Notes under the pieces: generated by a model
The model's input: the letters and a program-made list of their open reading frames with translations, nothing else
Database searches by the model: none
What the model was told of the DNA's origin: nothing
Source: a virus
IMG/VR virus record: IMGVR_UViG_3300010157_000016
Span: 1 to 35,893 of that record
Reading direction: 5' to 3' (one strand)
DNA: 35,893 nt
Made by a program: the position numbers and the translations under genes
Part shown: in pieces, positions 10,402 through 30,726 of the stretch
Layout: every line of letters begins with the position of its first letter
Numbering within the stretch: the stretch's first letter is position 1

Positions 10402-10402
10402 G

Positions 10403-10720: not shown

Positions 10721-10721
10721 T

Positions 10722-11161: not shown

Positions 11162-12565
11162 TTAAATTCGTCCATTGCCCGAATTGATTTTGCCTTCAGC
11201 CCACATGTCCTCAATAGTGACGTTTGACACGCCGCCAATGACCAGACGTTTTGAATTTATGGATTGAGGTTTTTGGCTTGACCACGGCCTGGACATGCAG
11301 GCATAGCGCCACTCATCCAGGCAATGGTCCTCGGATTCGGTATCAACATCCTCCGGTTTTATCCTGTCGTGCTGCATCGTGGGAATCGTCCTGATGCTGT
11401 CGCGGCACGTCGAAAAACAGTATATAAGCGGGCGGTCGTCCTCGCCCTTCATGCGCTGGCGCATTTGATCCCATCCAGGCACACGTTTATTGTCAGCGCC
11501 CAATATGTTCAGCAGCCCCGCCCGGCCCATCCGCTCCTTGATGCTCGGTCCGCCGTCCTGCTGTCCTGTAGCTGGATCTGCGGCGATATATGATAGTTTT
11601 TCGTCTCGGCCCATCCTGACCAAAATGCCGTGTGCCACATCCTCAGCCGTCATTTTGAGTCCGACGTTTGGCGAGCTGGCACCGTACCATTCTCTATACC
11701 TGATCAATGCGCCACGCGGGAACTCTGGCAGCTCGCCATCTGAGACGGCCCACCATCCAAAACTAAATGGCCGAGCAGAACCCCAATCGAACGACCCAAA
11801 CCGCGTCCAATGTGCTGGCAACTCGATAGGCTGCACGATGATTTTGGACGACCAGCAATCAAAAAACGCGCCCTCGATGACATTCCAATCTCCATCAAGC
11901 CACGCCCTGACCAACGCCAGACTACCTGTTTGTTTGAGGCGATCAACGTAACTTGGGTCGTTTTGCATCAACACACGGTTATCGTACAATCTGGCTGGAA
12001 TATAAACGCGCTTATTGCCGATGTCGTCGGATATGATGGCGTTGCCGAGAGGGTTTGGATCGATGTAACGAGCCTTGACCCAAGTATGTCCTGGGCCACC
12101 AGGGTTTCCGGTTCCGTGCATCTGGCATGGGATGCCAACGCCAGAGCGTAGGATACCGTGCATTTTCATGACTGGCGATGGGTCTGGAAAATTGGTCAGC
12201 TCCTCGAAAAACACATCAGTGTAATCGTGGCCCTGGTACTTTTCCGAGTCACTGTCACGTTCCAGCGGCCTGAACTTCAGAGTCGCGCCGTTTGGGAAAA
12301 CCCATGTTTTAGGCTGCTCCCGAAAAATAGCGCCTAGTTTGGGATAAATCTCTCTGGACCGCGATATAGCGGCCTCTAGCTGTGGCAGCTCACGCCTAAA
12401 AAAAATCCCCTTGGTATGGCCCCCGTAGCGTTTTTGTTTGAGCGCGAATTTGCCTAGCATCCCGTCTGTTTTACCGCCGCCCCTCGCACCACCATAAAAA
12501 ATCTCATAAACCGGGCAGTCAATCAGCCGTTTTTGCGGTCCCTGCTGAGGACGCCACGCGATCAT
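11162..12565 (-). CDS. terL: Terminase large subunit
   Basis: 467 aa with a Walker A-like GGARGGGKTDG near the N-terminus and an acidic nuclease-type C-terminal region (DVDTESEDHCLDEWRY). Sits downstream of the small subunit. Confidence 0.9.
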   Translation of the reverse strand: MIAWRPQQGPQKRLIDCPVYEIFYGGARGGGKTDGMLGKFALKQKRYGGHTKGIFFRRELPQLEAAISRSREIYPKLGAIFREQPKTWVFPNGATLKFRPLERDSDSEKYQGHDYTDVFFEELTNFPDPSPVMKMHGILRSGVGIPCQMHGTGNPGGPGHTWVKARYIDPNPLGNAIISDDIGNKRVYIPARLYDNRVLMQNDPSYVDRLKQTGSLALVRAWLDGDWNVIEGAFFDCWSSKIIVQPIELPAHWTRFGSFDWGSARPFSFGWWAVSDGELPEFPRGALIRYREWYGASSPNVGLKMTAEDVAHGILVRMGRDEKLSYIAADPATGQQDGGPSIKERMGRAGLLNILGADNKRVPGWDQMRQRMKGEDDRPLIYCFSTCRDSIRTIPTMQHDRIKPEDVDTESEDHCLDEWRYACMSRPWSSQKPQSINSKRLVIGGVSNVTIEDMWAEGKINSGNGRI

Positions 12566-14457: not shown

Positions 14458-14502
14458 TGTACGAAAACAGTGTTTGACATTGCAACAAAATTTTCGTACA
14501 AA
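14458..14502 (+). promoter_or_regulatory. Rightward early promoter P1 flanked by an inverted-repeat operator
   Basis: TTGACA (14474-14479)-N17-TACAAA (14497-14502). The perfect 10-bp inverted repeat TGTACGAAAA (14458-14467) / TTTTCGTACA (14491-14500) brackets the -35 and overlaps the -10. Confidence 0.6.
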
Positions 14503-19502: not shown

Positions 19503-20288
19503 GTGATGGTTTTTTTACGATCACTCCATTGGCTCCAGATTATGAGCGGATGCCAGAAGTCGTTTTCCGTCACCGTGGGGACAATTTTTCATCGAAGCCA
19601 CATCGATCTACAGCGCTGGTTTTTACTGATTTCACTAATGCTGTCGGCCAAAAAGGGGCTATCGGCCTGTCAAGCGGCCCGCGATCTCGGAATGCGACGA
19701 CCGACCGTCTGGTAAATGATGCACCGAATTTGCGGTGCAATGGCCGATGATGGCCAGTTGCTGTCGGGCTTGGTCGAAATGGACGAAACCTATGTCGGCG
19801 GAAAGCCCCGAAAACAAAACAGACGTGACGACGATCCGCCGGGATTTCAGGGCGTAACTAGCAAGATTCCTGTCGTCTGGGCAGTTGAACGATGCGGCAA
19901 TGTTAAAATCGAGGCCACGACAAAAGACGAGATGGCCGATGGCGGCTTGATCGATATGGTACGCCGCATGGTGTCATCAAAAGACACAGTTTTGACGACC
20001 GACGAACATCCTGGCTATGGCAGGGTCAATCGGCACGTCGCTCATCGGACAATTAACCACTCGGTGAGCTACGTGGAGCGGGATTTGTTCTCGGATCAGT
20101 TCGGCTTGACGCATACCAACACCATTGAGAGCATTTGGGCTATTGTGAAACGGGCGATTTTTGGACAATTTCATCACGTCAGCGCAAAATATCTGCCGCT
20201 GTACCTTAACGAAATCAGCTTTCGGTACAACCAGCGAAAAGCTGGCGGCGGATTTCACGGGGCACTTTATTTATCGGTGAAGCCCTAA
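19503..20288 (+). pseudogene. IS1595-family (ISXO2-like DDE) transposase gene, N-terminally disrupted and interrupted by an in-frame TAA at 19713-19715
   Basis: CQKSFSVTVGTIFHRSHIDLQRWF...KKGLSACQAARDLG...TVW*MMHRI, then DDE boxes VEMDETYVGGK, TTDEHPGY and NTIESIWAIVKR. Track ORFs 19503..19715 and 19716..20288 share one frame. Confidence 0.75.
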
Positions 20289-20477: not shown

Positions 20478-20522
20478 TGTCCGAAAATAGCGTTTGACAT
20501 TGCAACAAAATTTTCGTACATT
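20478..20522 (+). promoter_or_regulatory. Promoter P2, a duplicated copy of P1/operator
   Basis: 40/45 identical to 14458-14502, with a perfect 29-bp core (20492-20520 = 14472-14500). TTGACA 20494-20499, N17, TACATT 20517-20522. The left half-site is degenerate (TGTCCGAAAA). Confidence 0.6.
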
Positions 20523-20559: not shown

Positions 20560-20589
20560 CCCTCGGCCTCAACCGGCTGGGGGCTTTTT
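20560..20589 (+). terminator. Intrinsic-terminator-like hairpin in the P2 leader
   Basis: A 9-bp GC-rich stem (20560-20568 pairs with 20575-20583, 2 G-U pairs) with loop UCAACC, followed by C and T5 (20585-20589). It lies between P2 and the ATG at 20613. Confidence 0.5.
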
Positions 20590-20612: not shown

Positions 20613-20870
20613 ATGACTGAATACCAACAAATTCTAGAGGCCAAGGCCGACATGAAGTGCGCCATTTTCGTCGCCGTCATAGACGGATGCGCCAAAATCA
20701 ATGCATTGGCTTGGGAGCCGTGCAGCCATAGCCTGATAATGGCTCAAATCGACGATGTGATTGATGACGCTATACATGCGGCGCTCACGTCTGCTGATTT
20801 CGGCGAGGATGACATCGCGCTAGGAGCTGGTAAGAACGCCATCAAGATCAGGAATGAGGTGGCGTCATGA
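20613..20870 (+). CDS. Small acidic hypothetical protein, 85 aa
   Basis: First ORF after P2. By my count, 14 D/E against 6 K/R. ATGA overlap with the next gene. Confidence 0.6.
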   Translation: MTEYQQILEAKADMKCAIFVAVIDGCAKINALAWEPCSHSLIMAQIDDVIDDAIHAALTSADFGEDDIALGAGKNAIKIRNEVAS

Positions 20871-23065
20871 CTATTACGACTCAAGATTTACCAGAAATTT
20901 TGAAAAACCACTTGCTGTGGATTAACGGCGAAAAAGGCGGGGTGCGTGCCGTCCTGAGCACTGCCGACCTGATCGGTTCCGACCTGATCGGTGCCGACCT
21001 GAGCGGTGCCGACCTGAGCACTGCCGTCCTGAGCCGTGCCGACATGCGCGGTGCCGTTTTGAGCGGTGCCAACATGTGCGGTGCCAACATGTGCGGTGCC
21101 AACATGATCGGTGCCGTCCTGTGCGGTACAAACATGTGCGGTGCCGTCCTGAGCGGTGCCAACCTGAGCGGTGCCGACATGCGCGGTGCCGACCTGAGCA
21201 CTGCCGACCTGAGCACTGCCGACCTGATCGGTGCCTACCTGAGCAGTGCCGACCTGAGCACTGCCAACATGATCCGTGCCGTCCTGAGCGGTGCCAACAT
21301 GCGCGATGCCGACCTGAGCGGTGCCGACCTGAGCGGTTCCGTCCTGAGCGATGCCGACCTGAGCGATGCCGACCTGAGCACTGCCGACCTGAGCGGTGCC
21401 GTCCTGATCGGTGCCAACATGAGCCGTGCCGACATGTGCGGTGCCGTTTTGAGCGGTGCCAACATGTGCGGTGCCAACATGTGCGGTGCCAACATGATCG
21501 GTGCCGTCCTGTGCGATACCAACATGTGCGATGCCGACCTGAGCCGTGCCGACCTGAGCACTGCCGATATGCGCGGTGCCGACCTGAGCGGTTCCGTCCT
21601 GAGCACTGCCGACCTGATCGGTGCCGACCTGATCGGTTCCGACCTGAGCGGTGCCGACATGCGCGGTGCCGTCCTGATCGGTGCCAACATGAGCGATGCC
21701 GACCTGAGCCGTGCCGACCTGAGCGATGCCGTCCTGAGCGATGCCGACCTGAGCCGTGCCGACCTGAGCACTGCCGTCCTGCGCGGTGCCGACCTGATCG
21801 GTTCCGACCTGATCGGTGCCGACATGCGCGGTGCCGTCCTGAGCGGTGCCAACATGTGCGGTTCCAACATGTGCGGTGCCAACATGATCGGTGCCGTCCT
21901 GAGCGGTGCCGAGATGCGCGATGCCGACCTGAGCGGTGCCGTCCTGAGCGGTGCCGTCCTGAGCGATGCCGACCTGAGCCGTGCCGACATGCGCGGTGCC
22001 GTCCTGATCCGTTCCGACCTGAGCCGTGCCGACCTGAGCCGTGCCGTCCTGAGCACTGCCGTCCTGCGCGGTGCCAACATGATCGGTGCCGTCCTGAGCA
22101 CTGCCGACCTGAGCGATGCCGACCTGAGCAGTGCCGTCCTGAGTACTGCCATCCTGCGCGGTGCCAACATGTGCGGTGCCAACATGTGCGGTGCCAACAT
22201 GATCGGTGCCGTCCTGAGCGGTGCCAACATGCGCGATGCCGACATGTGCGGTGCCGACATGCGCGGTGCCGTTTTGAGCGGTGCTAACATGCGCGATGCC
22301 GACCTGAGCACTGCCGACCTGAGCGGTGCCAACATGATCGGTGCCGACCTGAGCGGTTCCGACCTGAGCGGTGCCAACATGATCCGTGCCGACTTGAGCA
22401 CTGCCGACCTGAGCGATGCCGTCCTGAGCACTGCCGACCTGAGCGGTGCCAACATGAGCCGTGCCGACATGCGCGATGCCGACCTGAGCCGTGCCGTCCT
22501 GATCGGTGCCGTCCTGATCCGTGCCGACATGCGCGGTGCCGTCCTGAGCGATGCCGACCTGAGCGGTGCCGACATGCGCGGTGCCGTCCTGAGCGGTGCC
22601 AACATGATCGGTTCCGACCTGAGCGGTGCCGTCCTGAGCGGTGCCAACCTGAGCGGTGCCGACATGCGCGGTGCCGTCCTGAGCGGTTCCGTCCTGAGCG
22701 GTGCCGACCTGAGCGGTGCCGACATGTGCGGTGCCGTCCTGAGCGGTGCCGTCCTGAGCGGTGCCAACATGAGCCGTGCCGACCTGAGCGGTGCCGACCT
22801 GAGCGGTGGTATTAAAATAAACGGCTCAGTAATAGAGCTGGGGCCGATTGGCTCCCGCAATGACACTGTGCTTTTCTACCAAACAGATTGTGGCGTTTAC
22901 GTTCAAGCTGGTTGTTTTTTAGGGGGACTCTCCGAGTTTTTTGACGCCGTTGAAAAAACGCATGGCGAAAATTCGCATGGATTCGCCTATCGGGCGGTGA
23001 TTACAATGATCGAGACAGTTTGGGCTGATTTTATTGCTAAAAAATTTAATGAGGTGGCGGCATGA
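20867..23065 (+). CDS. Giant pentapeptide-repeat protein (732 aa; 124 consecutive A[DNV][LM][SRCI][GTDRS] units plus a C-terminal globular domain)
   Basis: Residues 28-647 are uninterrupted 5-aa repeats (ADLSG, ANMCG, AVLSG...). N-terminal cap ILKNHLLWINGEKGG. The 85-aa C-terminal non-repeat region is GPIGSRNDTVLFYQTDCGVYVQAGCF... Confidence 0.9.
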   Translation: MTITTQDLPEILKNHLLWINGEKGGVRAVLSTADLIGSDLIGADLSGADLSTAVLSRADMRGAVLSGANMCGANMCGANMIGAVLCGTNMCGAVLSGANLSGADMRGADLSTADLSTADLIGAYLSSADLSTANMIRAVLSGANMRDADLSGADLSGSVLSDADLSDADLSTADLSGAVLIGANMSRADMCGAVLSGANMCGANMCGANMIGAVLCDTNMCDADLSRADLSTADMRGADLSGSVLSTADLIGADLIGSDLSGADMRGAVLIGANMSDADLSRADLSDAVLSDADLSRADLSTAVLRGADLIGSDLIGADMRGAVLSGANMCGSNMCGANMIGAVLSGAEMRDADLSGAVLSGAVLSDADLSRADMRGAVLIRSDLSRADLSRAVLSTAVLRGANMIGAVLSTADLSDADLSSAVLSTAILRGANMCGANMCGANMIGAVLSGANMRDADMCGADMRGAVLSGANMRDADLSTADLSGANMIGADLSGSDLSGANMIRADLSTADLSDAVLSTADLSGANMSRADMRDADLSRAVLIGAVLIRADMRGAVLSDADLSGADMRGAVLSGANMIGSDLSGAVLSGANLSGADMRGAVLSGSVLSGADLSGADMCGAVLSGAVLSGANMSRADLSGADLSGGIKINGSVIELGPIGSRNDTVLFYQTDCGVYVQAGCFLGGLSEFFDAVEKTHGENSHGFAYRAVITMIETVWADFIAKKFNEVAA
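20948..22807 (+). repeat. 15-bp periodic coding repeat array (124 units) with higher-order ~390-bp periodicity
   Basis: 1860 nt = 124 x 15. The block GCCAACATGTGCGGTGCCAACATGTGCGGTGCCAACATGATCGGTGCCGTCCT recurs at 21068, 21458, 21848 (1 mismatch) and 22163. Confidence 0.9.
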
Positions 23066-23286
23066 ACGCAATCATAAAGACCGATCAACCAGACATGGAG
23101 CCTTTCTATGAGGCCATGTCGATTGCTTACGAGAAAGAGGCAGAAGCGCAATTCCTCTATGCCGATGCCAAAAATCTGCATCCAACCGATGCGATTCGGG
23201 ATGGATGGATCGACCATATTGCCAACGCCGTCCAATTGTTAGAGAAGGCGGCAAAAGTCCTCGAACGCGACGAGGTAACGCTATGA
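23062..23286 (+). CDS. Hypothetical protein, 74 aa
   Basis: ATGA-coupled ORF. Confidence 0.55.
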   Translation: MNAIIKTDQPDMEPFYEAMSIAYEKEAEAQFLYADAKNLHPTDAIRDGWIDHIANAVQLLEKAAKVLERDEVTL

Positions 23287-23531
23287 ACCCAACATCAATA
23301 TTCGCCGAAACAGGCGATTTCGTCACCAAAATGGCGAACAAACTAAACGGACAGGATGAAGTTCAGGCGCTTGGCGCTGCTCTAGTCCAGTTCGGGATTG
23401 ACGCGCTCATTCAAACGATGGGCCGTCATGATCTGGCCCAGACTCTCCGCGAGATGCTGCCTGAGATTTGTTCGACGAACGACAACGGGGAGTCGGTGAC
23501 GTTGATCCCGCATATGGGAGCGGTGTCATGA
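23283..23531 (+). CDS. Hypothetical protein, 82 aa
   Basis: ATGA overlap at 23283-23286. The track ORF 23205..23531 is trimmed. Confidence 0.55.
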   Translation: MNPTSIFAETGDFVTKMANKLNGQDEVQALGAALVQFGIDALIQTMGRHDLAQTLREMLPEICSTNDNGESVTLIPHMGAVS

Positions 23532-23599
23532 GCTATGTCGAGGCGATTTTGACAGCGGCGATGGTTATCGCTTGTTGCATTAATTGGTAGGGGGCGTTT

Positions 23600-23839
23600 A
23601 TGGGACCATATGAGATAGCCCGGCAATATGCTTGGGGTGTGGCCGGAGAGTGGATAATCCGCCGCGTTGAGGGCCGGTTTGACGTTCCGGGAATCGACGT
23701 GTCCGCCCCGAATCACACGTCTGCAATGATTGTGATGCTTACGCTAAATACCACCCCGGCGGAAAAGCTTTGGGACTCCGCAAAGATTGCAGTCAGAGAA
23801 ACCCCAGACTATGCGCCGGAAACGGAGGCAGCAGAATGA
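23600..23839 (+). CDS. Hypothetical protein, 79 aa
   Basis: ORF in the operon. Its stop overlaps the next ATG. Confidence 0.5.
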   Translation: MGPYEIARQYAWGVAGEWIIRRVEGRFDVPGIDVSAPNHTSAMIVMLTLNTTPAEKLWDSAKIAVRETPDYAPETEAAE

Positions 23840-24600
23840 GTACCATAGTCGGGATGGGCCATAACCATCCGCCCGAACCTACGGCCTATGAAGTGGTTAA
23901 AGGCCACATCGAAGATTTGTATAACACAGCCAAAGACTTTCTTGATGGCGCTCCCGTCGATAATGCTGGCTTGGCCGGTGCTGTCGAGCTTCTGGAGGTG
24001 CAGTTGAAAGCGTCCATTAAGCGGGCCGACGAAGCCCGCAAGGCCGAATCCAAAAAGCCGAATGATGAAATTGCAGAAATACAATCTAGGTACAACCCAT
24101 TGATTGGCAATAACAAGTTTGGCAAGAGCATTGCCATTCTTGGCGTGGAAGCCTGCCAGAAAGCATTGTTGCCGTGGCGCAAAAAGGAACTAGCTGACAA
24201 GGAAGCGGCTGCCAAGCTGGCACGTGCAGAGGCGGAGGCCAAGGCCGAAGCCCTCCGTGCTGAACAAGAAAAGGCCATCGCATCTCAGGTCGATACCGTT
24301 GACTTGGCTGAACAAGAACGCCTGTCCAAGCTGGCAGATGATGCACAGAAGGCAAGCCGAATTGCCCGGAGTGCTGAGAAATCCGCCACCACCAAGACCG
24401 GCATCAGGACCACATTCAAGGCGGTTATGGTTGAGGGCGGCATGGATGCAGCTCTAACGCATGTTCTCATTAACGATGGCGATACGGTGCGCGGATGGTT
24501 GCAGGGTTGGGCTGACCTGGCCGTTCGCGACTCCGGACCTGGTGCAGCGTCAATGAATATCCCCGGATTTGAAATCAAATCCATACAGGAATCGAGGTGA
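23836..24600 (+). CDS. Hypothetical coiled-coil protein, 254 aa, upstream of erf
   Basis: ATGA overlap at 23836-23839. A/E/K-rich central coiled-coil-like region. Function unknown. Confidence 0.6.
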   Translation: MSTIVGMGHNHPPEPTAYEVVKGHIEDLYNTAKDFLDGAPVDNAGLAGAVELLEVQLKASIKRADEARKAESKKPNDEIAEIQSRYNPLIGNNKFGKSIAILGVEACQKALLPWRKKELADKEAAAKLARAEAEAKAEALRAEQEKAIASQVDTVDLAEQERLSKLADDAQKASRIARSAEKSATTKTGIRTTFKAVMVEGGMDAALTHVLINDGDTVRGWLQGWADLAVRDSGPGAASMNIPGFEIKSIQESR

Positions 24601-25337
24601 TCCAAATGTCCGAATATACAACGCCAGAAGATACGACCTCAGCATTAGGCAATATCCACCAGCGTATAGCAATGGCTATGAAGTTGGTGCATTATATCCA
24701 AAAAGAAAAAAGGCAAGGGATGCAATACACCATTGTTTCCCATGATTCAGTTACATCCAAAGTTAGGCCTGAACTATTAAAGTGTGGTATCCATTATTAT
24801 CCATCTGAAATGACCTTTGTTCAAAATGGAAATAGAACAGAAGTCTTATTGAAAGTCCGGTTTGTTAATATTGATAGGCCGTCTGATTTTTTTGAAGTTC
24901 CAAGTTTTGGGTTTGGTTGCGACTCTCAAGACAAAGGCCCCGGAAAGGCGATTAGCTATGCTGTCAAATATGCCCTGCTCAAGGCAATGGGGCTTGAAAC
25001 TGGTGATGACTCCGATCTGGACCACCATATAGACTATGACCCAAAAGACCCCGCTAAAACTATACCGCTGCCCCCAACTCCAAAGACAGGGCCAACGCCA
25101 AAGCCAGACCCGACTCCAAGGCCAGACCGTATTTTGTCATGCGAGCAGGTGATGCAGGGAATCAACCTGATCGAGTGCGAGACACCAACAAAGAGCGTCG
25201 AGGCGCTATGCGAGTATTGGAAAAATAGCCAGCCCAGCATAAAGGCAATGGCCGAAGGCGAGCAGACAGCAGCAAAGCGCCTGATAAGAACCCGTATCGA
25301 TTATTTTGAGGGAATAATTCAGCAGGCGGCAGAATGA
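24597..25337 (+). CDS. erf: ERF-family single-strand annealing recombinase
   Basis: GPGKAISYAVKYALLKAMGLETGDDSDLD box typical of the ERF superfamily. GTG 24597 (GTGA coupling) or ATG 24606 could be the start. Confidence 0.75.
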   Translation: MIQMSEYTTPEDTTSALGNIHQRIAMAMKLVHYIQKEKRQGMQYTIVSHDSVTSKVRPELLKCGIHYYPSEMTFVQNGNRTEVLLKVRFVNIDRPSDFFEVPSFGFGCDSQDKGPGKAISYAVKYALLKAMGLETGDDSDLDHHIDYDPKDPAKTIPLPPTPKTGPTPKPDPTPRPDRILSCEQVMQGINLIECETPTKSVEALCEYWKNSQPSIKAMAEGEQTAAKRLIRTRIDYFEGIIQQAAE

Positions 25338-25495
25338 TGACACTCCCTGCCCGCAAAAAACGCGCCCACCAAGAACTTCACCAGATAGGTGAACCCGAGT
25401 TTCAGTCCAAATACCAGAGAGACTTGCCCAGACTTTCCGCTAATTTCTGGAAATCGTCTCAGCATCGCCAAAAATGGGAATCATCGCATGAGTGA
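25334..25495 (+). CDS. Possible small basic ORF, 53 aa
   Basis: ATGA overlap with the erf stop, and overlaps the next ATG. Translated by hand. Confidence 0.35.
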   Translation: MMTLPARKKRAHQELHQIGEPEFQSKYQRDLPRLSANFWKSSQHRQKWESSHE

Positions 25496-25946
25496 AATTA
25501 TCCTCTATGGCGAAACCCAGAGAGATCACGCACTAAAGCTCATCTCCGAGCTTGATTTGTCGAAGCCCTGGCGGATCGTCGTCAAGATGTTTGTCAAAAG
25601 CAGAAGCAACCCTCAGCTTGCGCTTTATTTTAAGTGGATGGGGATTATTTCCAAGGAAACCGGCAACGATCAAGATGATTTGCATGAGTTTTTCAAGCAA
25701 AAGTTTCTTGATCCTGAAATCAAGGAAGTGATGGGTGAGCAAATAGCAATATTTTCTACCCACGGCACAGCTAAACGCATGACTGAATATATGGAAAAGG
25801 TGTTTGCCTTCACCACATCAACGCTTGGTATTTTTCTGCCACTCCCTCAAGATCAAGGATTACAAACATGCTCCAAGTTATCATTGCAGGACGCCTCACC
25901 AAAGATGCTGACCTACGAACCACGCAAAGCGGTGACGCCATCCTGA
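25488..25946 (+). CDS. ninB: NinB/Orf-like recombination mediator
   Basis: KPWRIVVKMFVKSRSNPQLALYFKWMG resembles the lambda NinB core (KP..V.I..RNRSLDQN..LWA). The 3' end overlaps ssb by 79 nt. Confidence 0.55.
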   Translation: MSEIILYGETQRDHALKLISELDLSKPWRIVVKMFVKSRSNPQLALYFKWMGIISKETGNDQDDLHEFFKQKFLDPEIKEVMGEQIAIFSTHGTAKRMTEYMEKVFAFTTSTLGIFLPLPQDQGLQTCSKLSLQDASPKMLTYEPRKAVTPS

Positions 25947-26266
25947 CATTTAGCGTCGCTGTTGATGTTGGGTTTGGCGATAAGAAGCACGCAGTTTTCA
26001 CGGATTGTTCTATTTTCGGAAAGCGAGGCGAAACCCTCAAGCAGTATCTAACAAAGGGATGCTCAGTGACTGTTGCTGGTGCTGGAGACCTCAGATCATG
26101 GGAATCAAATGGCAAGAGCGGCACTAGCCTGACATGCCGAGTGGCAGAAGTGACTTTGCAGGGCGGCAAGCGCGACGCGGGGCAACCTGACGCAGCCAGC
26201 AAAGGCGGATCATCTGAACGCGATTGGCAAGCTCCAATCAGTATTGACGACGAAATACCCTTTTAA
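25868..26266 (+). CDS. ssb: Single-stranded DNA-binding protein
   Basis: OB-fold N-terminus MLQVIIAGRLTKDADLRTTQSGDAILTFSVAV and an acidic tail ending DDEIPF. Confidence 0.9.
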   Translation: MLQVIIAGRLTKDADLRTTQSGDAILTFSVAVDVGFGDKKHAVFTDCSIFGKRGETLKQYLTKGCSVTVAGAGDLRSWESNGKSGTSLTCRVAEVTLQGGKRDAGQPDAASKGGSSERDWQAPISIDDEIPF

Positions 26267-26449
26267 TTTGCAATAACCCAATTCGGGAGGCCCCACTCCC
26301 TATTCTCGGTGGTGCGAGGTCAAAGCTCACAATGACCACTGGATCCGGTCCAAAATGTCTTTTTTGGTCCAAGCAGGGGTCAACGTATGGGCCTTAAATA
26401 GCAGTGCGAATTGTGAGAATAGCCGTTTTTTGAAGGATGAATTAGAAAA

Positions 26450-26656
26450 ATGACACGTCAAATGTTCAAAATTAGATGCTCTGAACCCGCTTTAGACCTC
26501 GCCTACGGATTTATGACGGACCTGCGCTATGGCAATCGTCTGGGTATCGACCCCGGAAATTATAGCACACAGGATTTTGGCTCGATCACGCTCAGGGCTT
26601 GGCGTAGAGTCGATGGAGGAATACGGATTTTAGAGATCGAGAGGGGATTAGCGTGA
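26450..26656 (+). CDS. Hypothetical protein, 68 aa
   Basis: GAAGGATGA SD. Its stop overlaps the GTG start of the methyltransferase. Confidence 0.55.
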   Translation: MTRQMFKIRCSEPALDLAYGFMTDLRYGNRLGIDPGNYSTQDFGSITLRAWRRVDGGIRILEIERGLA

Positions 26657-27471
26657 AACTTCTACTTCTCGACTTATTTAGCGGTATCGGTGGGTTCTCT
26701 CTCGGCCTCGAACGCACTGGCGGGTTTAAGACCGTCGCGTTTTGCGAGATTGAGCCGTACCCGCGCCAAGTATTGGCAAAGCACTGGGAAGGAGTACCGA
26801 TTTATGAAGATGTGCGAACACTCTCAGCAGCTAGACTTGCCGCTGACGGAATCGAAGTCAATGCGATTTGTGGAGGATTCCCCTGCCAAGACATCAGCCT
26901 CGCCGGTAAAGGCGCAGGATTGGCAGGGGAACGGTCAGGACTATGGCGCGAGTACGCCCGTCTTATTGGCGAGATTAGACCGACATACGCGATTATGGAA
27001 AACGTCGCAGCGTTGCTTGTTAGAGGAATGGGAGAAGTTCTCTCAGACATTTCCTCGTTCGGGTATGACGCAGAATGGCATTGCATACCAGCTTCAGCCA
27101 TTGGTGCGCCTCACAGACGCGACAGAATATGGCTCATTGCCTACCCCATGCGCAAGGGATTGGAAAGACACGGGGGGGGCAAGCACATTCCTCCGAAAGT
27201 CACCGAGTCTTGGAGCAATAGTTATGATGTTTCCGACGCCAACAGTGAGCGGGAACTACAACCGAGTCGGTTGTTCCGCACACTCAGGCGACGGATTGGC
27301 AACAGTTGTGAAGAAACTAGAGGGTGGTGGAGTTTTGAACCAGACGTGGGTCGAGTGGCTGATGGGGTTCCCCGCAGGGTGGACCGACTTAAAGGACTAG
27401 GAAACGCAGTCGTGCCGCAAATCCCAGAGATGATCGGAAACGCAATATTGGAATATGAGGGATTCACATGA
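26653..27471 (+). CDS. DNA (cytosine-5)-methyltransferase, short type, 272 aa (orphan)
   Basis: Motif I DLFSGIGG, motif IV GGFPCQDIS, motif VI MENVAALL, motif VIII GAPHRRDRIW, motif X LGNAVVPQI. No adjacent nuclease gene. Confidence 0.9.
   Translation: MKLLLLDLFSGIGGFSLGLERTGGFKTVAFCEIEPYPRQVLAKHWEGVPIYEDVRTLSAARLAADGIEVNAICGGFPCQDISLAGKGAGLAGERSGLWREYARLIGEIRPTYAIMENVAALLVRGMGEVLSDISSFGYDAEWHCIPASAIGAPHRRDRIWLIAYPMRKGLERHGGGKHIPPKVTESWSNSYDVSDANSERELQPSRLFRTLRRRIGNSCEETRGWWSFEPDVGRVADGVPRRVDRLKGLGNAVVPQIPEMIGNAILEYEGFT
26804..27400 (+). other. Long +1-frame ORF nested in the C5-MTase gene (198 aa from ATG 26804; open from 26690), with MTase variable-domain-like motifs. Coding status unresolved.
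   Basis: AAGGAG 26789-26794 lies 9 nt before the ATG. The translation contains PRSGMTQNGIAYQL, LPTPCARDWKD, FPTPTVSG and LNQTWVEWLMGFPAGWTDL. Confidence 0.35.
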
Positions 27472-27674
27472 CACACCACATCCCCACCATTGCCGACTGC
27501 AAGAGCCAGCACTATCGGCCCCGCTATTGGATGAGCAACATGGCAAGGCCCATGACACTAGACGACATCGAAGCAAGCCGCTGGTGCAGAGCGTTCCACG
27601 GCAAAGAACAGCGGGCAAAGTTGCAGGGCAATGCCTGCGATGGATGCCTGCGAATACCGGAGGAACAGAGATGA
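27468..27674 (+). CDS. Hypothetical Cys-containing protein, 68 aa
   Basis: ATGA overlap with the MTase stop at 27468-27471. Confidence 0.5.
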   Translation: MTHHIPTIADCKSQHYRPRYWMSNMARPMTLDDIEASRWCRAFHGKEQRAKLQGNACDGCLRIPEEQR

Positions 27675-27720
27675 CCGATAAGTTAGATTTAACAAAACCC
27701 GTACGCGTGGAGTGGGAATA

Positions 27721-28152
27721 ATGACTAACAAAATTGACCAGCTACTCGTCGTGCAGCAAAACACGATTATAGAGCTGAAACGGCAGTTAGCTGAGAGCAT
27801 TACGGGTTTGGCGATGGCTTGCGCAAATGATGTCTTAAGCGAGGGGATTATTCGGCGGTTAGAACGGGAGTTGCTTGCCTGTAGAACCGCTACGGCAGGC
27901 ACTGATGCACAGCCCGCCAAGCTCCCAGAATCAAACGGTGATGGCGGCGTATACTTGGCTTTGGAAGATACCGGAATGGGTCCTGAGGCATTCGCAAAGG
28001 ACCACCGAAAGGGTGCGGTGATAACCAAAATGGCTCTTGCATACTGGAGGTGGTGTCACCTTCGCGTTATTAAGGTGTCCCGCGAGGAGTTTAATACCTT
28101 GTGGCCGGATGCGCCTATGCCCGTGTTGCTAAGGGGAGGAGCCAAGCCATGA
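27721..28152 (+). CDS. Hypothetical protein, 143 aa
   Basis: ATG 27721 overlaps the upstream TAA. The track ORF 27712..28152 is trimmed. Confidence 0.55.
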   Translation: MTNKIDQLLVVQQNTIIELKRQLAESITGLAMACANDVLSEGIIRRLERELLACRTATAGTDAQPAKLPESNGDGGVYLALEDTGMGPEAFAKDHRKGAVITKMALAYWRWCHLRVIKVSREEFNTLWPDAPMPVLLRGGAKP

Positions 28153-28475
28153 CAACACTAGCCATAAGTACATGCCAAAAATGTGGCTACGTCACCGAGA
28201 CTAGATCGAGCAACATCGAAGCAATGATAGAGAAGCGCGTACTCAAGCAGGCGCTCAGCTGGGGAGACGACGCGCTGTATTGCGGGCCTTTTATTATCGG
28301 GTTTGTAGACATTGATGTTTACTTCAATCAGTTTAGCGGCGGCTTGCTTTGCGACATTTACGAAGGGGGTTGTTCTCGCCAGTTTGAGACGGAGGAGAAA
28401 GCCCGCGAAGCTGTCACGGCAGCAGCCTTGAAAATGATAGATGATGGACTGACGTGGATATGCTTACCATCATGA
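28149..28475 (+). CDS. Hypothetical protein, 108 aa; last gene of the rightward unit
   Basis: ATGA overlap at 28149-28152. N-terminal CQKCGY half zinc-ribbon. Confidence 0.55.
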   Translation: MTTLAISTCQKCGYVTETRSSNIEAMIEKRVLKQALSWGDDALYCGPFIIGFVDIDVYFNQFSGGLLCDIYEGGCSRQFETEEKAREAVTAAALKMIDDGLTWICLPS

Positions 28476-28560
28476 CTACCGTGACGGGCGGATGACGTAG
28501 TGGACTTGATCCGCAAAGCCTGCAACGGCAGCCCGGCGAGGACCGCCAGAGCAAGCCGCC

Positions 28561-28896
28561 TCATTTGCTAACCGGAAGGATTACCATAGTGGTCAGGCTG
28601 ACTGGAGTGGAAACGGGAACCGACACCAGATTGACTGTTGTTGGGATAGGGACGGAGCCTGGCAGCTTGTTTGAGCAGGCTTCCACCACGGATTCATGAA
28701 CATGGGCTTCAACGGAATTGGTCAGCCCGATAGCCGCCACTGTGGCAGGATCAACGATGGTGGCGATAACCGAGACTGTTTTGAGCGCGGCATAGGCTAT
28801 AGGATCGGCGGCGCAAGCCACAGTAGCGATCTGCTGTTGCGCCTGAGTGGAGCAGCCCGCGAGGGCCATCAGGCCGAGGAAAATATATTTATGCAT
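28561..28896 (-). CDS. Lipoprotein, 111 aa (o-spanin-like position, or an exclusion-type moron)
   Basis: MHKYIFLGLMALAGC has a signal peptide with lipobox LAG|C. AAGGAA lies upstream. The start overlaps the upstream small ORF by 8 nt. Confidence 0.65.
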   Translation of the reverse strand: MHKYIFLGLMALAGCSTQAQQQIATVACAADPIAYAALKTVSVIATIVDPATVAAIGLTNSVEAHVHESVVEACSNKLPGSVPIPTTVNLVSVPVSTPVSLTTMVILPVSK

Positions 28897-29068
28897 TGGT
28901 TGTTCCTTTATCTTTGGCATGGAGGACATTGACTGCGAGCAAATCGACGATGTGATAGAGCTTGCCGAGATTCGTATCGGGAGCTGGCGTTGGCACGATT
29001 GCCGAGACAACAGAGGCGACCACGACTATGTGGGCTGGGTCTGAAAGCCATGTGATGATCTGATCCAT
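28889..29068 (-). CDS. Small membrane protein, 59 aa
   Basis: AGGAG lies 6 nt upstream of ATG 29068. TM-like HIVVVASVVSAIVP. Translated by hand with no internal stop. Below the track size cutoff. Confidence 0.45.
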   Translation of the reverse strand: MDQIITWLSDPAHIVVVASVVSAIVPTPAPDTNLGKLYHIVDLLAVNVLHAKDKGTTNA

Positions 29069-29086
29069 TTTAAACTCCTATTCTGG

Positions 29087-29584
29087 TTAAATCGAAACAA
29101 CCGGCGCAAAACCGTTACAAATCAACAAAAGCTGTCCCGGCGTGATAATCCGCCAAGGCCGCTCAAGCTGATGCCCGATAAACGAGTGTGACGGCTGAGT
29201 AAGCATCCCGGCAGCAAAGCCCGAACAGATCAGCCGCCCCGGATGGGACCAGTTGTCGCCCAGAGCGATGCCCTCAATGGCCTTGGTATCGTAAGGCGTG
29301 CCAATCATCGATTGCGCCCAATCGTAAGCCTCCCGCTCACAAACATCAGAGGTTGGCAGCGCCACCCGCTTGATATTGTAACCGCCACAAGACGCCAGAT
29401 AGTTGGCGGGCCTGACCTGAACCCCGGCAGGCTTCCCGCCCATGCCACCCTCATGTTGCGCCCCAAGCAATGACCCATCCGCAAGCACAATATCCACATG
29501 GCCGACATCGCTCTCCGTCCCCCAAGCAATAATCCGGGCCACCGCACTGTCAAACGCACAAAATTGTAAGGTGATCTGTCCCAT
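29087..29584 (-). CDS. Putative permuted papain-fold (YiiX/C92- or NlpC/P60-like) cell-wall peptidase/amidase, 165 aa
   Basis: His box GHVDIVL precedes Cys box LICSGFAAG, with GTPYD between them. GAGGGGG SD lies before ATG 29584 (track ORF trimmed). Confidence 0.5.
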   Translation of the reverse strand: MGQITLQFCAFDSAVARIIAWGTESDVGHVDIVLADGSLLGAQHEGGMGGKPAGVQVRPANYLASCGGYNIKRVALPTSDVCEREAYDWAQSMIGTPYDTKAIEGIALGDNWSHPGRLICSGFAAGMLTQPSHSFIGHQLERPWRIITPGQLLLICNGFAPVVSI

Positions 29585-29594
29585 TTTAACCCCC

Positions 29595-29996
29595 TCAAGC
29601 AAAATAGAGCTGGTTGCCGATATCCGCCGTGGGTGCCCTGCCCCGCGCCCAATAAGGGGCCTTGATTGTCTTGGCATAATATTGAGTAGCCCCCCCTGTC
29701 GGGTCGGCGATGATTCCGCTCAACACCCTTGCCGCCACCCTGAGCGCCAGCCCAAACACTGGATCGGATTCCGTCACCGCCAGCAGCTTGCTATGGTTGG
29801 GATCGCCCTCATTCCAACAATCAAATTGCAGACGGCATTTGCAGACGCTGTATATATCGTGGCCCCACCAGCCCGGATGATTGACCCGGTTGCGGATGAC
29901 CCAAGCCACGGCGGTCATACCCGCCTCGCCGCCGCCCCGATCCTCGCCCCAGATGGTACGGGCCAACAGGTCGATATCCGAGGATGTCGCGGTCAT
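29595..29996 (-). CDS. SleB/Hydrolase_2-type cell-wall hydrolase (endolysin)
   Basis: LARTIWGEDRGGGEAGMTAVAWVIRNRV...RLQFDCWN signature. ATGA overlap with the upstream gene at 29993-29996. Confidence 0.75.
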   Translation of the reverse strand: MTATSSDIDLLARTIWGEDRGGGEAGMTAVAWVIRNRVNHPGWWGHDIYSVCKCRLQFDCWNEGDPNHSKLLAVTESDPVFGLALRVAARVLSGIIADPTGGATQYYAKTIKAPYWARGRAPTADIGNQLYFA

Positions 29997-30283
29997 GGCT
30001 TGTCCACCATCGGGCAACCAATCTGGCGGCGCAAAGAATCCATCTCCCCATCAACCCGCTTGATAACCTCGCGGTGCAAATCCTTGTGAATATAGTTCTC
30101 GCGGATGTCCTTGGAGATGCCGTCCACCCGCTCATGGGTCCTGACCATGCGGGATTCGCTCTCCAGCTTGGTCTCCCTGAACTCGCTCTTGATTGATTGG
30201 TGCAAGGTCCATAGGCCACCTACGACCACTGACCCCACGCTCAAGACAATGGCGATGATATGCGACCAATCCATTTCCATCAC
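29993..30283 (-). CDS. Membrane protein with an N-terminal TM and charged coiled-coil tail, 96 aa (holin or i-spanin-like)
   Basis: TM segment IIAIVLSVGSVVVGGLW. Lies immediately upstream of the endolysin. Confidence 0.5.
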   Translation of the reverse strand: MMEMDWSHIIAIVLSVGSVVVGGLWTLHQSIKSEFRETKLESESRMVRTHERVDGISKDIRENYIHKDLHREVIKRVDGEMDSLRRQIGCPMVDKP

Positions 30284-30717
30284 GCCACCGGCTTGTTAGG
30301 AGCCACCGGCAACAGCGCCAGCAACCCGGCGATACTCGTAGGCTGACTGGCAACCGGCTCACCTTGGATCGCCCCAACAGCTGCCCACACAGCATCCCGC
30401 CAGCCCGTCAGGGCAGCAGCTTCGGCCTTGAACTGAGCCACGGTCGAGTTGGTGTAGGTGGCGGCGGAGGTGATGTCCGTATAACCCCAAGCCCGCGCCA
30501 GAGTATCGAGCATGGTGGCGACAGCATTGGCAGCCTCCGCCACAAGTTGCGCCTCAACCTGAGCCTGCACCGCCGCCGCATAGCCCGCAAATACTGCCGA
30601 AAGCTGGGCTGATGTCGGATATTCAGCCCCCATATCGACCGCACCGGTCGGGACTGGCGAGGGAGCCGGGTCAACCCAAGCAACCGTGATCCCGTTATTT
30701 GATGCAACATAAGTCAT
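30280..30717 (-). CDS. Hypothetical protein downstream of the tail fibre, 145 aa
   Basis: A-rich ORF coupled to its neighbours. Sits in a fibre-accessory position. Confidence 0.55.
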   Translation of the reverse strand: MTYVASNNGITVAWVDPAPSPVPTGAVDMGAEYPTSAQLSAVFAGYAAAVQAQVEAQLVAEAANAVATMLDTLARAWGYTDITSAATYTNSTVAQFKAEAAALTGWRDAVWAAVGAIQGEPVASQPTSIAGLLALLPVAPNKPVA

Positions 30718-30726
30718 GGTTTTTCC

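What the first reader, a model, noticed from the sequence alone, without database searches (positions are those of the whole stretch)
20867..23065. Giant phage pentapeptide-repeat protein: 124 uninterrupted repeats, a candidate DNA mimic or anti-defence factor
Residues 28-647 form 124 consecutive pentapeptide units with no break. If they fold like known pentapeptide-repeat proteins (four units per coil), this gives about 31 coils of right-handed quadrilateral beta-helix. That is several times longer than the characterised DNA-mimicking members Qnr, MfpA and AlbG, which act on DNA gyrase. The repeats are capped by a short N-terminal segment (ILKNHLLWINGEKGG) and a roughly 85-aa non-repeat C-terminal domain (GPIGSRNDTVLFYQTDCGVYVQAGCFLG...HGENSHGFAYR). 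The gene is second in an early operon under the duplicated operator-controlled promoter, after a small acidic protein, in a region that also encodes two orphan MTases. This context fits a factor that sequesters a host DNA-binding enzyme such as a topoisomerase, a restriction or other defence nuclease, or a nucleoid protein. No function can be read from the sequence.
Basis: partly seen in the sequence, partly recalled or inferred. Interest (0 to 1): 0.75.

Follow-up and report, generated by a model that had tools for sequence, protein, structure and literature searches.

The report
Oversized phage pentapeptide-repeat early protein
A 36-kb phage spends 6% of its genome on an early gene for a rod-shaped repeat protein about four times longer than any fully assembled relative; it belongs to a common, unstudied phage protein family whose shared part is a small tail domain, and family comparisons argue against the proposed DNA-mimic role without excluding it.

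Summary
ORF 20867-23065 (+) encodes 732 aa: a 27-aa N-cap, 124 in-register pentapeptide units with no indel, and an 85-aa non-repeat C-terminal domain. It is second in an operon behind a duplicated promoter/operator.

Caveat: an independent assembly of the same phage confirms only the two array edges. About 108 interior units rest on the window's assembly alone.

The protein is not a one-off. Its C-terminal domain (motif GPIGSR..GCF..F..THG.N.H..Y) is absent from Pfam, NCBIfam and PDB sequences. It defines a family of at least 1,198 clusters at 50% identity, found in early regions of tailed phages, always behind a beta-solenoid.

That solenoid has 7-38 pentapeptide units in complete ORFs, or is a six-residue-repeat type instead. 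Array charge ranges from acidic to basic, and the closest homologue (38 units) is slightly basic. Of 80 viral-contig loci, 23 break inside the array, so long arrays are under-counted.

The window array grew by block duplication. An 18-bp direct repeat brackets the gene, and near-identical Caulobacter phages differ by 25 units.

Best reading: an early host-directed accessory protein whose conserved activity lies in the C-terminal domain, with a length-unconstrained rod. The Qnr/MfpA-type DNA-mimic idea is weakened, not excluded. Function is untested.

The parts
20478..20520 (+). Promoter/operator element. It holds the -35 hexamer TTGACA (20494-20499) and the -10 hexamer TACATT (20517-20522). 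It is the second copy of a 43-nt element.
   Evidence: Promoter scan. It is 93% identical to 14458-14500, and the 29-mer occurs only twice in the window with 0 expected by chance. Co-regulation by one repressor is inferred.
14458..14500 (+). First copy of the same promoter/operator element, with the inverted repeat TTGTACGAAAA...TTTTCGTACAA around the -35 hexamer.
   Evidence: inverted repeat I4, 18-nt arms, 83% complementary.
20560..20583 (+). Terminator-like GC-rich hairpin followed by a T run, in the leader between the promoter and ORF85.
   Evidence: Its function was not tested.
20613..20870 (+). ORF85, a small acidic protein (pI 4.3) and first gene of the operon. Its stop codon overlaps the repeat gene's ATG (ATGA).
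   Evidence: No Pfam, PHROG, NCBIfam or PADLOC match.
20853..20870 (+). Left copy of the 18-bp direct repeat AATGAGGTGGCGTCATGA (Shine-Dalgarno sequence plus ATGA junction), at the 5' boundary of the gene.
   Evidence: two copies in the window, chance expectation 0.01.
20867..23065 (+). The pentapeptide-repeat gene: 732 aa, 72.9 kDa, pI 4.1, 6.1% of the window.
20867..20947 (+). N-terminal cap, residues 1-27 (MTITTQDLPEILKNHLLWINGEKGGVR). This is the 'L..IL..H..WL...GG.RA.L' cap type seen in other family members.
   Evidence: The same cap type occurs in P0099, P0100, P0128 and P0143. L033 has a near-identical cap.
20948..22807 (+). 124 pentapeptide units (residues 28-647) with net charge -42. 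Predicted to form about 31 coils, or about 150 A, of right-handed quadrilateral beta-helix.
   Evidence: The fold of the last 16 units comes from an AlphaFold2 model with pLDDT 88.5. Foldseek matches NP275 at rmsd 0.4 A over 78 columns. The coil count and rod length are inferred.
21048..21125 (+). Longest exact internal repeat (78 nt). Its partner lies at 21438-21515, 26 units downstream. It marks a block duplication in which units 1 to about 40 match units 27 to about 66 at 86-93% nucleotide identity.
   Evidence: The independent JGI contig ends at 21117, inside this repeat.
22808..23062 (+). C-terminal domain, residues 648-732. It has four beta-strands followed by three helices and the family motif GPIGSR..GCF..F..THG.N.H..Y.
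   Evidence: Matches phrog_20532 at E = 1.7e-13. 1,198 clusters match at E <= 1e-3. Invariant residues are given. Structural model. No Pfam, NCBIfam or PDB-sequence match.
23048..23065 (+). Right copy of the 18-bp direct repeat (AATGAGGTGGCGGCATGA). It encodes the last residues of the protein and the ATGA junction to ORF74.
23062..23286 (+). ORF74, a small acidic protein (pI 4.5), translationally coupled downstream. The operon continues to an exonuclease (23770-24600), Erf (24597-25337) and NinB (25389-25946).

Best explanation
This is a real gene for a cytoplasmic, acidic, rod-shaped protein. It is an extreme-length member of a large, unnamed family of early accessory proteins of tailed phages.

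Every family member has the same plan: a short N-terminal cap, a beta-solenoid, and a conserved C-terminal alpha/beta domain of about 70-85 aa.

Shown by sequence comparison:
- The C-terminal domain is the constant part of the family.
- The solenoid varies freely in length (7-38 pentapeptide units in complete ORFs, 124 here), in net charge (acidic to basic) and even in repeat type (pentapeptide or a six-residue repeat).
- The window's array grew by duplication of multi-unit blocks.
- The gene is bracketed by an 18-bp direct repeat, like an inserted cassette.
- The gene sits second in an operon with overlapping stop/start codons, behind a promoter/operator that duplicates the phage's other early promoter.

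Inferred:
- The protein is made immediately after infection or induction and acts on a host or competitor factor by binding.
- The conserved activity (partner, ligand or metal binding through the invariant Ser/Cys/His/His/Tyr positions, possibly with dimerisation) lies in the C-terminal domain.
- The solenoid is a rigid rod or scaffold whose length is under little constraint.
- The giant size is mainly a product of repeat instability, not a rod tuned to mimic a defined stretch of DNA.
For: Family and constant domain:
- phmmer of the 85-aa C-terminal domain against 1.84 billion representative proteins finds 1,198 clusters at E <= 1e-3. The domain is always C-terminal.
- G15, G35, F44, H52 and Y61 are invariant, and S16, C36, F37 and G53 nearly so.
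- Phage genome examples: EBPR siphovirus 1 gp3, Pseudomonas phage Amjad_SA and Paenibacillus phage Pd_22F.

Variable solenoid:
- Among 262 sampled proteins the median array is 7 units and the maximum 27.
- Among 57 complete IMG/VR ORFs, 48 have 7-38 pentapeptide units and 9 have a 'GNARVY' six-residue solenoid. None is a standalone domain.
- Charge per unit runs from -1.0 to +0.73. The window is at -0.34 and the closest homologue, L033, at +0.11.

Length is tolerated to vary:
- Near-identical Caulobacter phages differ by a 375-bp in-frame deletion in their repeat gene (PMC11053796). RW gp016 has about 48 units.

Growth by duplication:
- At a lag of 26 units, nucleotide identity is 86-93% against a background of 79 +/- 4%.

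Cassette behaviour:
- The 18-bp direct repeat lies at both gene boundaries.
- L033 shares the gene but not its flanks.
- Neighbouring genes are not conserved across the family.

Early context:
- for the window.
- Homologues lie in early or accessory regions. A Listeria phage carries its pentapeptide-repeat gene in an early terminal-repeat operon (PMC12282133).

Fold:
- The AlphaFold2 model of residues 568-732 has pLDDT 88.5.
- The beta-helix part matches NP275, MfpA, Qnr and AlbG.

Cytoplasmic location:
- No hydrophobic segment (maximum Kyte-Doolittle score over 19 residues is 1.48).
Against: - There is no experimental evidence for any member of the family.
- The His-rich motif is not kept in the more distant C-terminal domains of Caulobacter phage RW and the Rheinheimera Barba phages. 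The domain could therefore be mainly a cap or dimeriser.
- I could not inspect model coordinates, so clustering of the conserved residues into one site is unverified.
- The window array is more acidic than about 79% of sampled relatives. It occupies 6% of a small genome, which hints that its length may carry a benefit.
- Arrays in complete ORFs are a biased sample, because 23 of 80 loci break inside the array. 'Length unconstrained' rests on incomplete data.
Confidence: 0.5

Rival explanations
1. DNA mimic. The acidic beta-helix imitates duplex DNA. It sequesters or protects a host DNA enzyme (gyrase/topoisomerase IV, as with Qnr, MfpA and AlbG) or decoys a DNA-targeting defence such as restriction, BREX or RecBCD.
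For: - The pentapeptide beta-helix fold is shared with MfpA, Qnr and AlbG.
- Net charge is -46 and pI 4.1, spread evenly over the four faces.
- The gene sits in an early operon among small acidic proteins and upstream of an exonuclease and Erf. This is the kind of position where lambda and P22 carry anti-RecBCD genes (established knowledge).
- Two homologues, L007 and L012, sit upstream of RecT/YqaJ or ERF.
Against: - Neither acidity nor length is conserved. The family median is -0.13 per unit, a quarter of arrays are neutral or basic, and the closest homologue is +0.11.
- The same C-terminal domain follows a different solenoid type.
- The Qnr and MfpA models score below their cut-offs (183.9 < 240; 155.6 < 360), and there are no Qnr-type loops.
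- At 31 coils the rod is roughly 3-4 times the length of characterised gyrase-protecting members.
- Estimated linear charge is about -0.28 e/A, roughly half that of B-DNA (inference).
- The link to recombination genes is weak across the family: RecT 1, ERF 1 and YqaJ 2 of 26 loci.
Confidence: 0.2
2. Adaptive multivalent decoy or sponge. Each coil or block is a binding site for a host factor. Array expansion raises capacity, so the 124 units are selected for.
For: - The array takes up 6% of a 36-kb genome.
- Repeated block duplications have been kept in frame.
- Arrays are long enough to break assemblies in 29% of family loci, which suggests that long arrays are common.
Against: - The array has no face-specific or coil-periodic sequence pattern (lag-4 identity equals background).
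- A 25-unit deletion is tolerated in a Caulobacter phage.
- Frame retention is automatic for 15-nt units, so it is not evidence of selection.
Confidence: 0.12
3. The unit count is an assembly artefact. The gene is real, but the interior of the array in the window is a mis-resolved path through a repeat graph, and the true array is materially shorter or longer.
For: - No independent contig spans 21118-22736. Four short-read contigs end at or in the array.
- Any mis-join between 15-nt units keeps the reading frame, so the intact ORF does not validate the count.
Against: - There is no exact internal repeat of 99 nt or more, and only two repeated 77-mers.
- The independent contig ends lie exactly in repeats that the window sequence predicts.
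- The two confirmed array edges do not overlap each other, so the array in that sample is longer than 243 nt.
Confidence: 0.15
4. Virion or tail-fibre component.
For: A weak match to phrog_28766, 'tail fiber protein' (E = 1.8e-9), which covers repeat units only.
Against: - The gene lies in the early, plus-strand operon, away from the minus-strand structural module at 746-12565 and 30727-35871.
- Homologues always lie in early regions.
Confidence: 0.03

Closest known systems
MfpA, Qnr and AlbG (pentapeptide-repeat proteins that protect topoisomerases; DNA mimics)
   Same: Same repeat type and predicted right-handed quadrilateral beta-helix (Foldseek probability 1.0 to 2bm4, 6zt4, 2xtw and 2xt2). 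Acidic, cytoplasmic, and with helices after the array.
   Different: - About 31 coils here, against roughly 8-10 in the characterised proteins.
- No Qnr loops.
- A different C-terminal domain of four strands plus three helices, about 85 aa.
- Below the curated Qnr and MfpA model cut-offs.
- Encoded by a phage in an early operon.
- No evidence of gyrase interaction.
Short phage proteins of the same family: EBPR siphovirus 1 gp3 (223 aa), Pseudomonas phage Amjad_SA WAX22767 (262 aa) and IMG/VR locus L033 (296 aa from its MTITTQ start, 38 units)
   Same: Same plan of N-cap, pentapeptide array and C-terminal domain (37-49% identity in the domain). L033 has a nearly identical N-cap. All are annotated only as hypothetical or 'pentapeptide repeat'.
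   Different: - Arrays of about 20-38 units, against 124 here.
- Arrays are near neutral or slightly basic.
- The flanking genes are unrelated.
Caulobacter phage RW gp016 (356 aa) and its GB2A deletion variant
   Same: A long uninterrupted array (about 48 units), an early-region phage gene, a divergent relative of the C-terminal domain (GS.TRSDGY...AGC...F), and documented in-frame length polymorphism of 25 units.
   Different: - Lacks the THG.N.H motif.
- Less than half the length of the window protein.
Six-residue-repeat solenoid proteins with the same C-terminal domain (Paenibacillus phage Pd_22F QVQ56278; an Anaerotruncus colihominis prophage; loci L050, L085, L098)
   Same: The same C-terminal domain, including the GPIGSR and THGDN.H motifs, and also in phage or prophage early regions.
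   Different: - The solenoid is built of 'GNARVY'-type six-residue repeats behind a 'KYEFTGET..LHRIRA' N-terminal domain.
- It is not made of pentapeptide repeats.
Ocr, ArdA and Gam (phage or plasmid DNA-mimic anti-defence proteins)
   Same: Acidic, early-expressed and encoded by a mobile element. This is a functional analogy only.
   Different: - No sequence or fold relationship was detected.
- Estimated charge density is about half that of DNA.
- No matching annotation in PHROGs or PADLOC.

Membership tests
Pentapeptide-repeat proteins (Pfam PF00805) | Tandem five-residue units of the type A(D/N)LXX, with a small residue at position 1 and L/F/M at position 3 | tested here: met
   124 of 124 units have A/S/T at position 1 and L/M at position 3. 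PF00805 scores E = 5e-189.
Pentapeptide-repeat proteins (Pfam PF00805) | Right-handed quadrilateral beta-helix fold with four units per coil | tested here: met
   AlphaFold2 model of the last 16 units plus the C-terminal domain, pLDDT 88.5. Foldseek match to NP275 at rmsd 0.4 A over 78 columns. This is a prediction, and only for that segment; the full-length single-sequence model failed.
Qnr/MfpA/AlbG-type topoisomerase-protecting DNA mimics | Passes the curated family models | tested here: not met
   NCBIfam Qnr scores 183.9 bits against a cut-off of 240, and MfpA 155.6 against 360. All Qnr sub-family models also score below their cut-offs.
Qnr/MfpA/AlbG-type topoisomerase-protecting DNA mimics | Compact size (about 180-220 aa, 8-10 coils), plus loops A and B in Qnr | tested here: not met
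   732 aa, about 31 coils, and no interruption anywhere in the array.
Qnr/MfpA/AlbG-type topoisomerase-protecting DNA mimics | Dimerisation through C-terminal helices to give a DNA-sized rod | not testable with these tools
   The C-terminal domain has three helices, but no multimer prediction and no model coordinates were available.
Qnr/MfpA/AlbG-type topoisomerase-protecting DNA mimics | Strongly and consistently anionic surface | tested here: inconclusive
   The window array has net charge -42, spread evenly over the four faces. Family arrays range from -1.0 to +0.73 per unit, and the closest homologue is +0.11.
Qnr/MfpA/AlbG-type topoisomerase-protecting DNA mimics | Binds gyrase or topoisomerase IV and alters quinolone or toxin sensitivity | not testable with these tools
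   This needs biochemistry.
Phage 'solenoid + C-terminal domain' family (phrog_20532 / phrog_7964; unnamed) | C-terminal domain with GPIGSR..GCF..F..THG.N.H..Y, placed at the C-terminus | tested here: met
   phrog_20532 E = 1.7e-13. All invariant residues are present in the window protein, the first row of alignments A1 and A2. 1,198 clusters match.
Phage 'solenoid + C-terminal domain' family (phrog_20532 / phrog_7964; unnamed) | A beta-solenoid directly upstream of the domain, behind one of a few N-cap types | tested here: met
   The window's cap type recurs in P0099, P0100, P0128, P0143 and L033. All 57 complete IMG/VR ORFs carry a solenoid.
Phage 'solenoid + C-terminal domain' family (phrog_20532 / phrog_7964; unnamed) | Encoded in the early or accessory region of tailed phages or prophages | tested here: met
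   Window. Homologues.
Known anti-phage defence system components (PADLOC) | Match to a defence-system protein model | tested here: not met
   No PADLOC match for the protein, its C-terminal domain or five neighbouring ORFs.

The most novel reading that the evidence does not exclude
The 'solenoid + C-terminal domain' proteins are a widespread, so far unrecognised class of phage immediate-early counter-defence or host-takeover factors. In this reading the rigid rod is functional, for example as a nucleic-acid-like decoy for DNA-tracking host complexes, or as a ruler that positions the conserved C-terminal metal- or ligand-binding domain. Rod length would then be a rapidly evolving, selected parameter, with this 124-unit, roughly 150-A rod as its extreme.
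Probability: 0.15. Interest if true: 0.75.

Novelty: new variant of a known kind. Interest (0 to 1): 0.42.

Why it matters
- **An unstudied family.** Pentapeptide-repeat genes are common in phage genomes and no functional study of one was found. This analysis shows that many share an undescribed C-terminal domain, absent from Pfam, NCBIfam and PDB sequences. That domain, not the repeats, is the conserved part.
- **A redirected experiment.** Work should start with the C-terminal domain, not only with DNA-mimic assays on the rod.
- **A sampling bias.** About 29% of family loci are cut inside the array, so metagenome catalogues under-report long-array members.
- **An annotation trap.** Curated 'equivalog' models for HetL, Alr5209, PipB2 and PipB are passed only because repeat scores add up.
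- **A possible new class.** If the family proves to be a counter-defence or host-takeover class, it would be one with more than a thousand sequence clusters.

Tried and rejected
- **Word-index search.** The search with the 85-aa domain found nothing.
- **Full-length structure.** Single-sequence AlphaFold2 of the whole protein failed (pLDDT 34.6) and was ignored.
- **NCBIfam matches.** The HetL, Alr5209, PipB2, PipB and CefA hits exceed their cut-offs only through summed repeat scores. I rejected them as orthology.
- **Fold search.** The PDB search returned only beta-helix matches in its 50 listed rows, with nothing covering the C-terminal domain.
- **L011 synteny.** L011 looked syntenic by gene sizes (85 aa, target, 74 aa, 106 aa), but the flanking proteins share no similarity. 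Rejected.
- **Anti-RecBCD idea.** I considered that the gene travels with recombinases. Three contexts fit (the window, L007, L012), but a census of 149 neighbouring ORFs in 26 loci shows only RecT 1, ERF 1 and YqaJ 2. Downgraded.
- **Standalone domains.** I first thought the C-terminal domain also occurs alone. None of 57 complete IMG/VR ORFs is standalone, and many short database entries start inside arrays. Rejected as truncation artefacts.
- **Phage tblastn coverage.** The 26 records reported as covering at least 80% of the query are short genes that tile onto different parts of the query. They are not long arrays.
- **Searches for a contig spanning the array.** Exact-protein look-ups failed. 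Four exact DNA scans of the viral and metagenome collections found nothing.
- **Other negatives.** No near-identical phage genome. No PADLOC, Rfam or tRNA hits. The bacterial genome scan returned only 10 loci, too few for a length distribution.


Full report
**Observation**

The ORF at 20867-23065 (+) is real and encodes 732 aa. Residues 28-647 split into exactly 124 five-residue units in one register. Position 1 is A (112), S (10) or T (2). Position 3 is L (83) or M (41). There is no insertion or deletion anywhere. Tandem Repeats Finder reports a single period-15 array at 20946-22808 with 124.2 copies, 0% indels and score 1990. Pfam PF00805 scores E = 5e-189.

Long ORFs in two other frames of the array (403 aa on the + strand, 543 aa on the - strand) are by-products of the periodic sequence. 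Only the annotated frame joins an N-cap and a C-terminal domain that have homologues.

The protein is 72.9 kDa, has pI 4.1 and net charge -46, has no hydrophobic segment, and takes up 6.1% of the window.

**How far the number 124 can be trusted**

The window phage occurs in JGI sample 3300028392 as two contigs:
- One matches window 1-21117 at 99.99% identity.
- The other matches window 22737-35878 at 99.98% identity.

Two further 1-kb contigs from other samples end at 20919. Both edges of the gene are therefore independently confirmed. The interior 21118-22736 (about 108 units) is not.

The array has no exact internal repeat of 99 nt or more, and its longest is 78 nt. The two independent contig ends fall inside a 78-nt and a 33-nt exact repeat that the window sequence predicts. 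This makes the window's array plausible. An intact frame is no proof, however, because any mis-join between 15-nt units keeps the frame. I put about 0.15 on the count being materially wrong.

**Context**

The window is a tailed-phage genome and appears circularly closed, with the same 66-nt tandem repeat at both ends. Its layout is:
- Structural genes lie on the minus strand (terminase, portal, major head, tail).
- Early genes lie on the plus strand: DnaB, a replication initiator, two methyltransferase-like ORFs, an exonuclease, Erf and NinB.

A sigma-70-like promoter (20494-20522) lies in a 43-nt element (20478-20520) that is 93% identical to one at 14458-14500. That element carries an inverted repeat around the -35 hexamer. 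The duplication is shown by sequence. Control of both promoters by one repressor is inferred.

The operon starts with an 85-aa acidic ORF, followed by the repeat gene and then a 74-aa acidic ORF. Both junctions are overlapping ATGA, which implies translational coupling.

Those two junctions are nearly the same 18-mer, AATGAGGTGGCG[T/G]CATGA. It occurs only twice in the window (chance expectation 0.01) and sits exactly at the two gene boundaries. The gene is therefore bracketed by a direct repeat, like an inserted cassette.

**The C-terminal domain defines a large family**

The 85-aa tail has no match in Pfam, NCBIfam, PADLOC or PDB sequences. It does match two PHROGs of unknown function. An exhaustive HMMER scan of 1.84 billion representative proteins finds 1,198 clusters at E <= 1e-3, always with the domain at the C-terminus.

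Sequenced phages carry it too: EBPR siphovirus 1 gp3, Pseudomonas phage Amjad_SA and Paenibacillus phage Pd_22F. The conserved positions are as follows:
- Invariant: G15, G35, F44, H52 and Y61.
- Nearly invariant: S16, C36, F37, V48 and G53.
- Consensus motif: GPIGSR.D...GCF.G.L.EF..AV..THGDN.HG..Y.

An AlphaFold2 model of residues 568-732, built with 117 homologues, is confident (pLDDT 88.5). It shows the beta-helix running into four beta-strands and three helices. Foldseek matches cover only the beta-helix part (NP275 at rmsd 0.4 A; also MfpA, Qnr and AlbG). No PDB entry in the listed rows covers the tail domain. The viral structure library returns other uncharacterised phage 'pentapeptide repeat' proteins.

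**What varies in the family**

- **Array length.** Among 262 sampled proteins the arrays have a median of 7 and a maximum of 27 units. In 80 IMG/VR loci, 57 ORFs are complete. Of these, 48 carry 7-38 pentapeptide units.
- **Solenoid type.** The other 9 complete ORFs carry a different solenoid of six-residue 'GNARVY' repeats behind a 'KYEFTGET..LHRIRA' N-terminus. None is a standalone domain. Bacterial genomes give the same picture in prophages of Firmicutes, Proteobacteria and Acidobacteria.
- **Charge.** Array charge runs from -1.0 to +0.73 per unit. The family median is -0.13 and the window is at -0.34.
- **The closest homologue.** L033 has a nearly identical N-cap (MTITTQNLPEILEKHLKWL...), 38 units and a slightly basic array (+0.11 per unit). 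It shares no flanking genes with the window.
- **Neighbours.** Neighbouring genes are not conserved. A Pfam census of 149 neighbouring ORFs in 26 loci shows mostly unknowns, plus scattered HTH, HNH, SSB, YqaJ, RecT and ERF hits. All contexts examined are early or accessory regions.

**Assembly bias**

In 23 of 80 IMG/VR loci (29%) the gene is cut by a contig end that lies inside the array. The same happens in 3 of 10 genome loci and for the window phage itself. Long arrays in this family are therefore under-assembled. The window's 124 units exceed every complete relative seen (maximum 38; about 48 in Caulobacter phage RW), but may be less exceptional in nature than these numbers suggest.

**How the array grew**

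Unit-lag analysis shows a higher-order period of about 26 units. Units 1 to about 40 match their partners 26 units downstream at 86-93% nucleotide identity, against a background of 79 +/- 4%. Weaker traces appear at lags 21, 52 and 73. The array thus grew by duplication of multi-unit blocks roughly the size of a whole array in ordinary relatives.

Near-identical Caulobacter phages differ by a 375-bp (25-unit) in-frame deletion in their repeat gene (PMC11053796). Large length changes are therefore compatible with viability.

**Interpretation**

The constant element of the family is the tail domain with its invariant polar residues. The solenoid is interchangeable in type and unconstrained in length and charge.

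The most economical reading is an immediate-early, cytoplasmic, host-directed binding protein:
- Its conserved activity (partner, ligand or metal binding, perhaps with dimerisation) lies in the C-terminal domain.
- The solenoid acts as a rigid rod or scaffold.
- The giant size is mainly a product of repeat instability. I give this reading a confidence of about 0.5.

Several results weaken it:
- Acidity and length are not conserved in the family.
- The same tail domain follows a different solenoid type.
- The Qnr and MfpA model scores fall below their cut-offs, and the array has no Qnr loops.
- Estimated charge density is about -0.28 e/A, roughly half that of B-DNA. This assumes 4.8 A rise per coil, taken from my knowledge of the MfpA structure.

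I give the DNA-mimic reading about 0.2. An adaptive multivalent decoy gets 0.12, an assembly-inflated count 0.15, and a virion component 0.03.

**Literature**

No functional study of a phage pentapeptide-repeat protein was found. Papers mention such genes only in annotation:
- Caulobacter phages.
- A Qnr-like call in a Nitrosomonas phage.
- A Listeria P100-like phage that carries one in an early terminal-repeat operon.

Known phage gyrase inhibitors (Igy, Gip) are unrelated small peptides (PMC10886550).

**Verdict**

The feature is real and striking, and it is an outlier of a common but uncharacterised family. I class it as a new variant of a known kind. The specific DNA-mimic or anti-defence claim is untested and weakened by the family comparisons. 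Interest is moderate (0.42). The more useful outcome is that the C-terminal domain is identified as the family's conserved core, and that assemblies systematically break in these arrays.

Noticed in passing
window 20853-20870 and 23048-23065: An 18-bp direct repeat, AATGAGGTGGCG[T/G]CATGA, sits exactly at the 5' and 3' boundaries of the repeat gene. Each copy holds the Shine-Dalgarno sequence and an overlapping stop/start ATGA. There are only two copies in the window (chance expectation 0.01). This suggests cassette insertion, and it would allow precise excision that re-joins ORF85 to ORF74. Homologue L033 shares only the AGGAATGAG upstream of its ATG.
   Followed up: partly
window 1-139 and 35771-35893: The same 66-nt tandem repeat (GAGTGTTCGTATCGGCAAGCATGTCC...) is present at both ends of the window. 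The window therefore looks like a circularly closed assembly whose ends overlap in a tandem repeat. An independent JGI contig also ends in this repeat.
   Followed up: partly
window 19503-20288: An IS1595-family (ISXO2-like DDE) transposase lies just upstream of the operon promoter. It is interrupted by an in-frame TAA at 19713-19715 (...RRPTVW*MMHRI...). The interrupted form is identical in three independent assemblies. It may be a pseudogene or may be read through; the ends of the element were not defined.
   Followed up: partly
window 20560-20583: A terminator-like GC-rich hairpin with a T run lies in the leader between the duplicated promoter (20494-20522) and the first ORF (20613). It may be an attenuator or an antitermination target. 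No Rfam family matches anywhere in the window.
   Followed up: no
IMG/VR loci L019-L098; genome loci L099-L108: In 23 of 80 viral-contig loci and 3 of 10 genome loci, the family gene is cut by a contig end inside its repeat array. Both pentapeptide and six-residue arrays are affected. Short-read assemblies break systematically in these genes, so database length distributions are biased towards short arrays, and many 'standalone' C-terminal-domain proteins are truncations.
   Followed up: yes
window 20867-23065 (NCBIfam scan): Curated NCBIfam 'equivalog' models for HetL, Alr5209, PipB2 and PipB, and the Cys-every-fifth RiPP model CefA, all score above their cut-offs on this protein. This happens only because many repeat units add up. 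Automated annotation could give the protein a misleading name.
   Followed up: partly
loci L050, L058, L072, L085, L088, L093, L095, L098, L099, L102, L104-L108; phage Pd_22F (L002 3497-4234): A sister architecture has an N-terminal 'KYEFTGET..LHRIRA..AGDLGGWIE' domain, a variable array of six-residue 'GNARVY' repeats, and the same C-terminal domain. It occurs in Firmicutes and Proteobacteria prophages, including the complete Anaerotruncus colihominis genome.
   Followed up: partly
window 21076-22287 (+) and 21235-22866 (-): Long open frames of 403 aa and 543 aa overlap the array in other frames. They are rich in Arg, Cys and Pro and are artefacts of the 15-nt periodicity. In the neighbour census, similar alternative-frame ORFs in other loci gave spurious 'Keratin_B2_2' and 'Extensin_1' Pfam hits.
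   Followed up: partly
window 20613-20870, 23062-23286, 23600-23839: Three small acidic ORFs (pI 4.3, 4.5 and 4.7) surround the repeat gene in the same early operon. None matches Pfam, PHROGs, NCBIfam or PADLOC, except that 23600-23839 was not scanned against Pfam or PHROGs. They are themselves candidates for small host-directed or DNA-mimic proteins.
   Followed up: no
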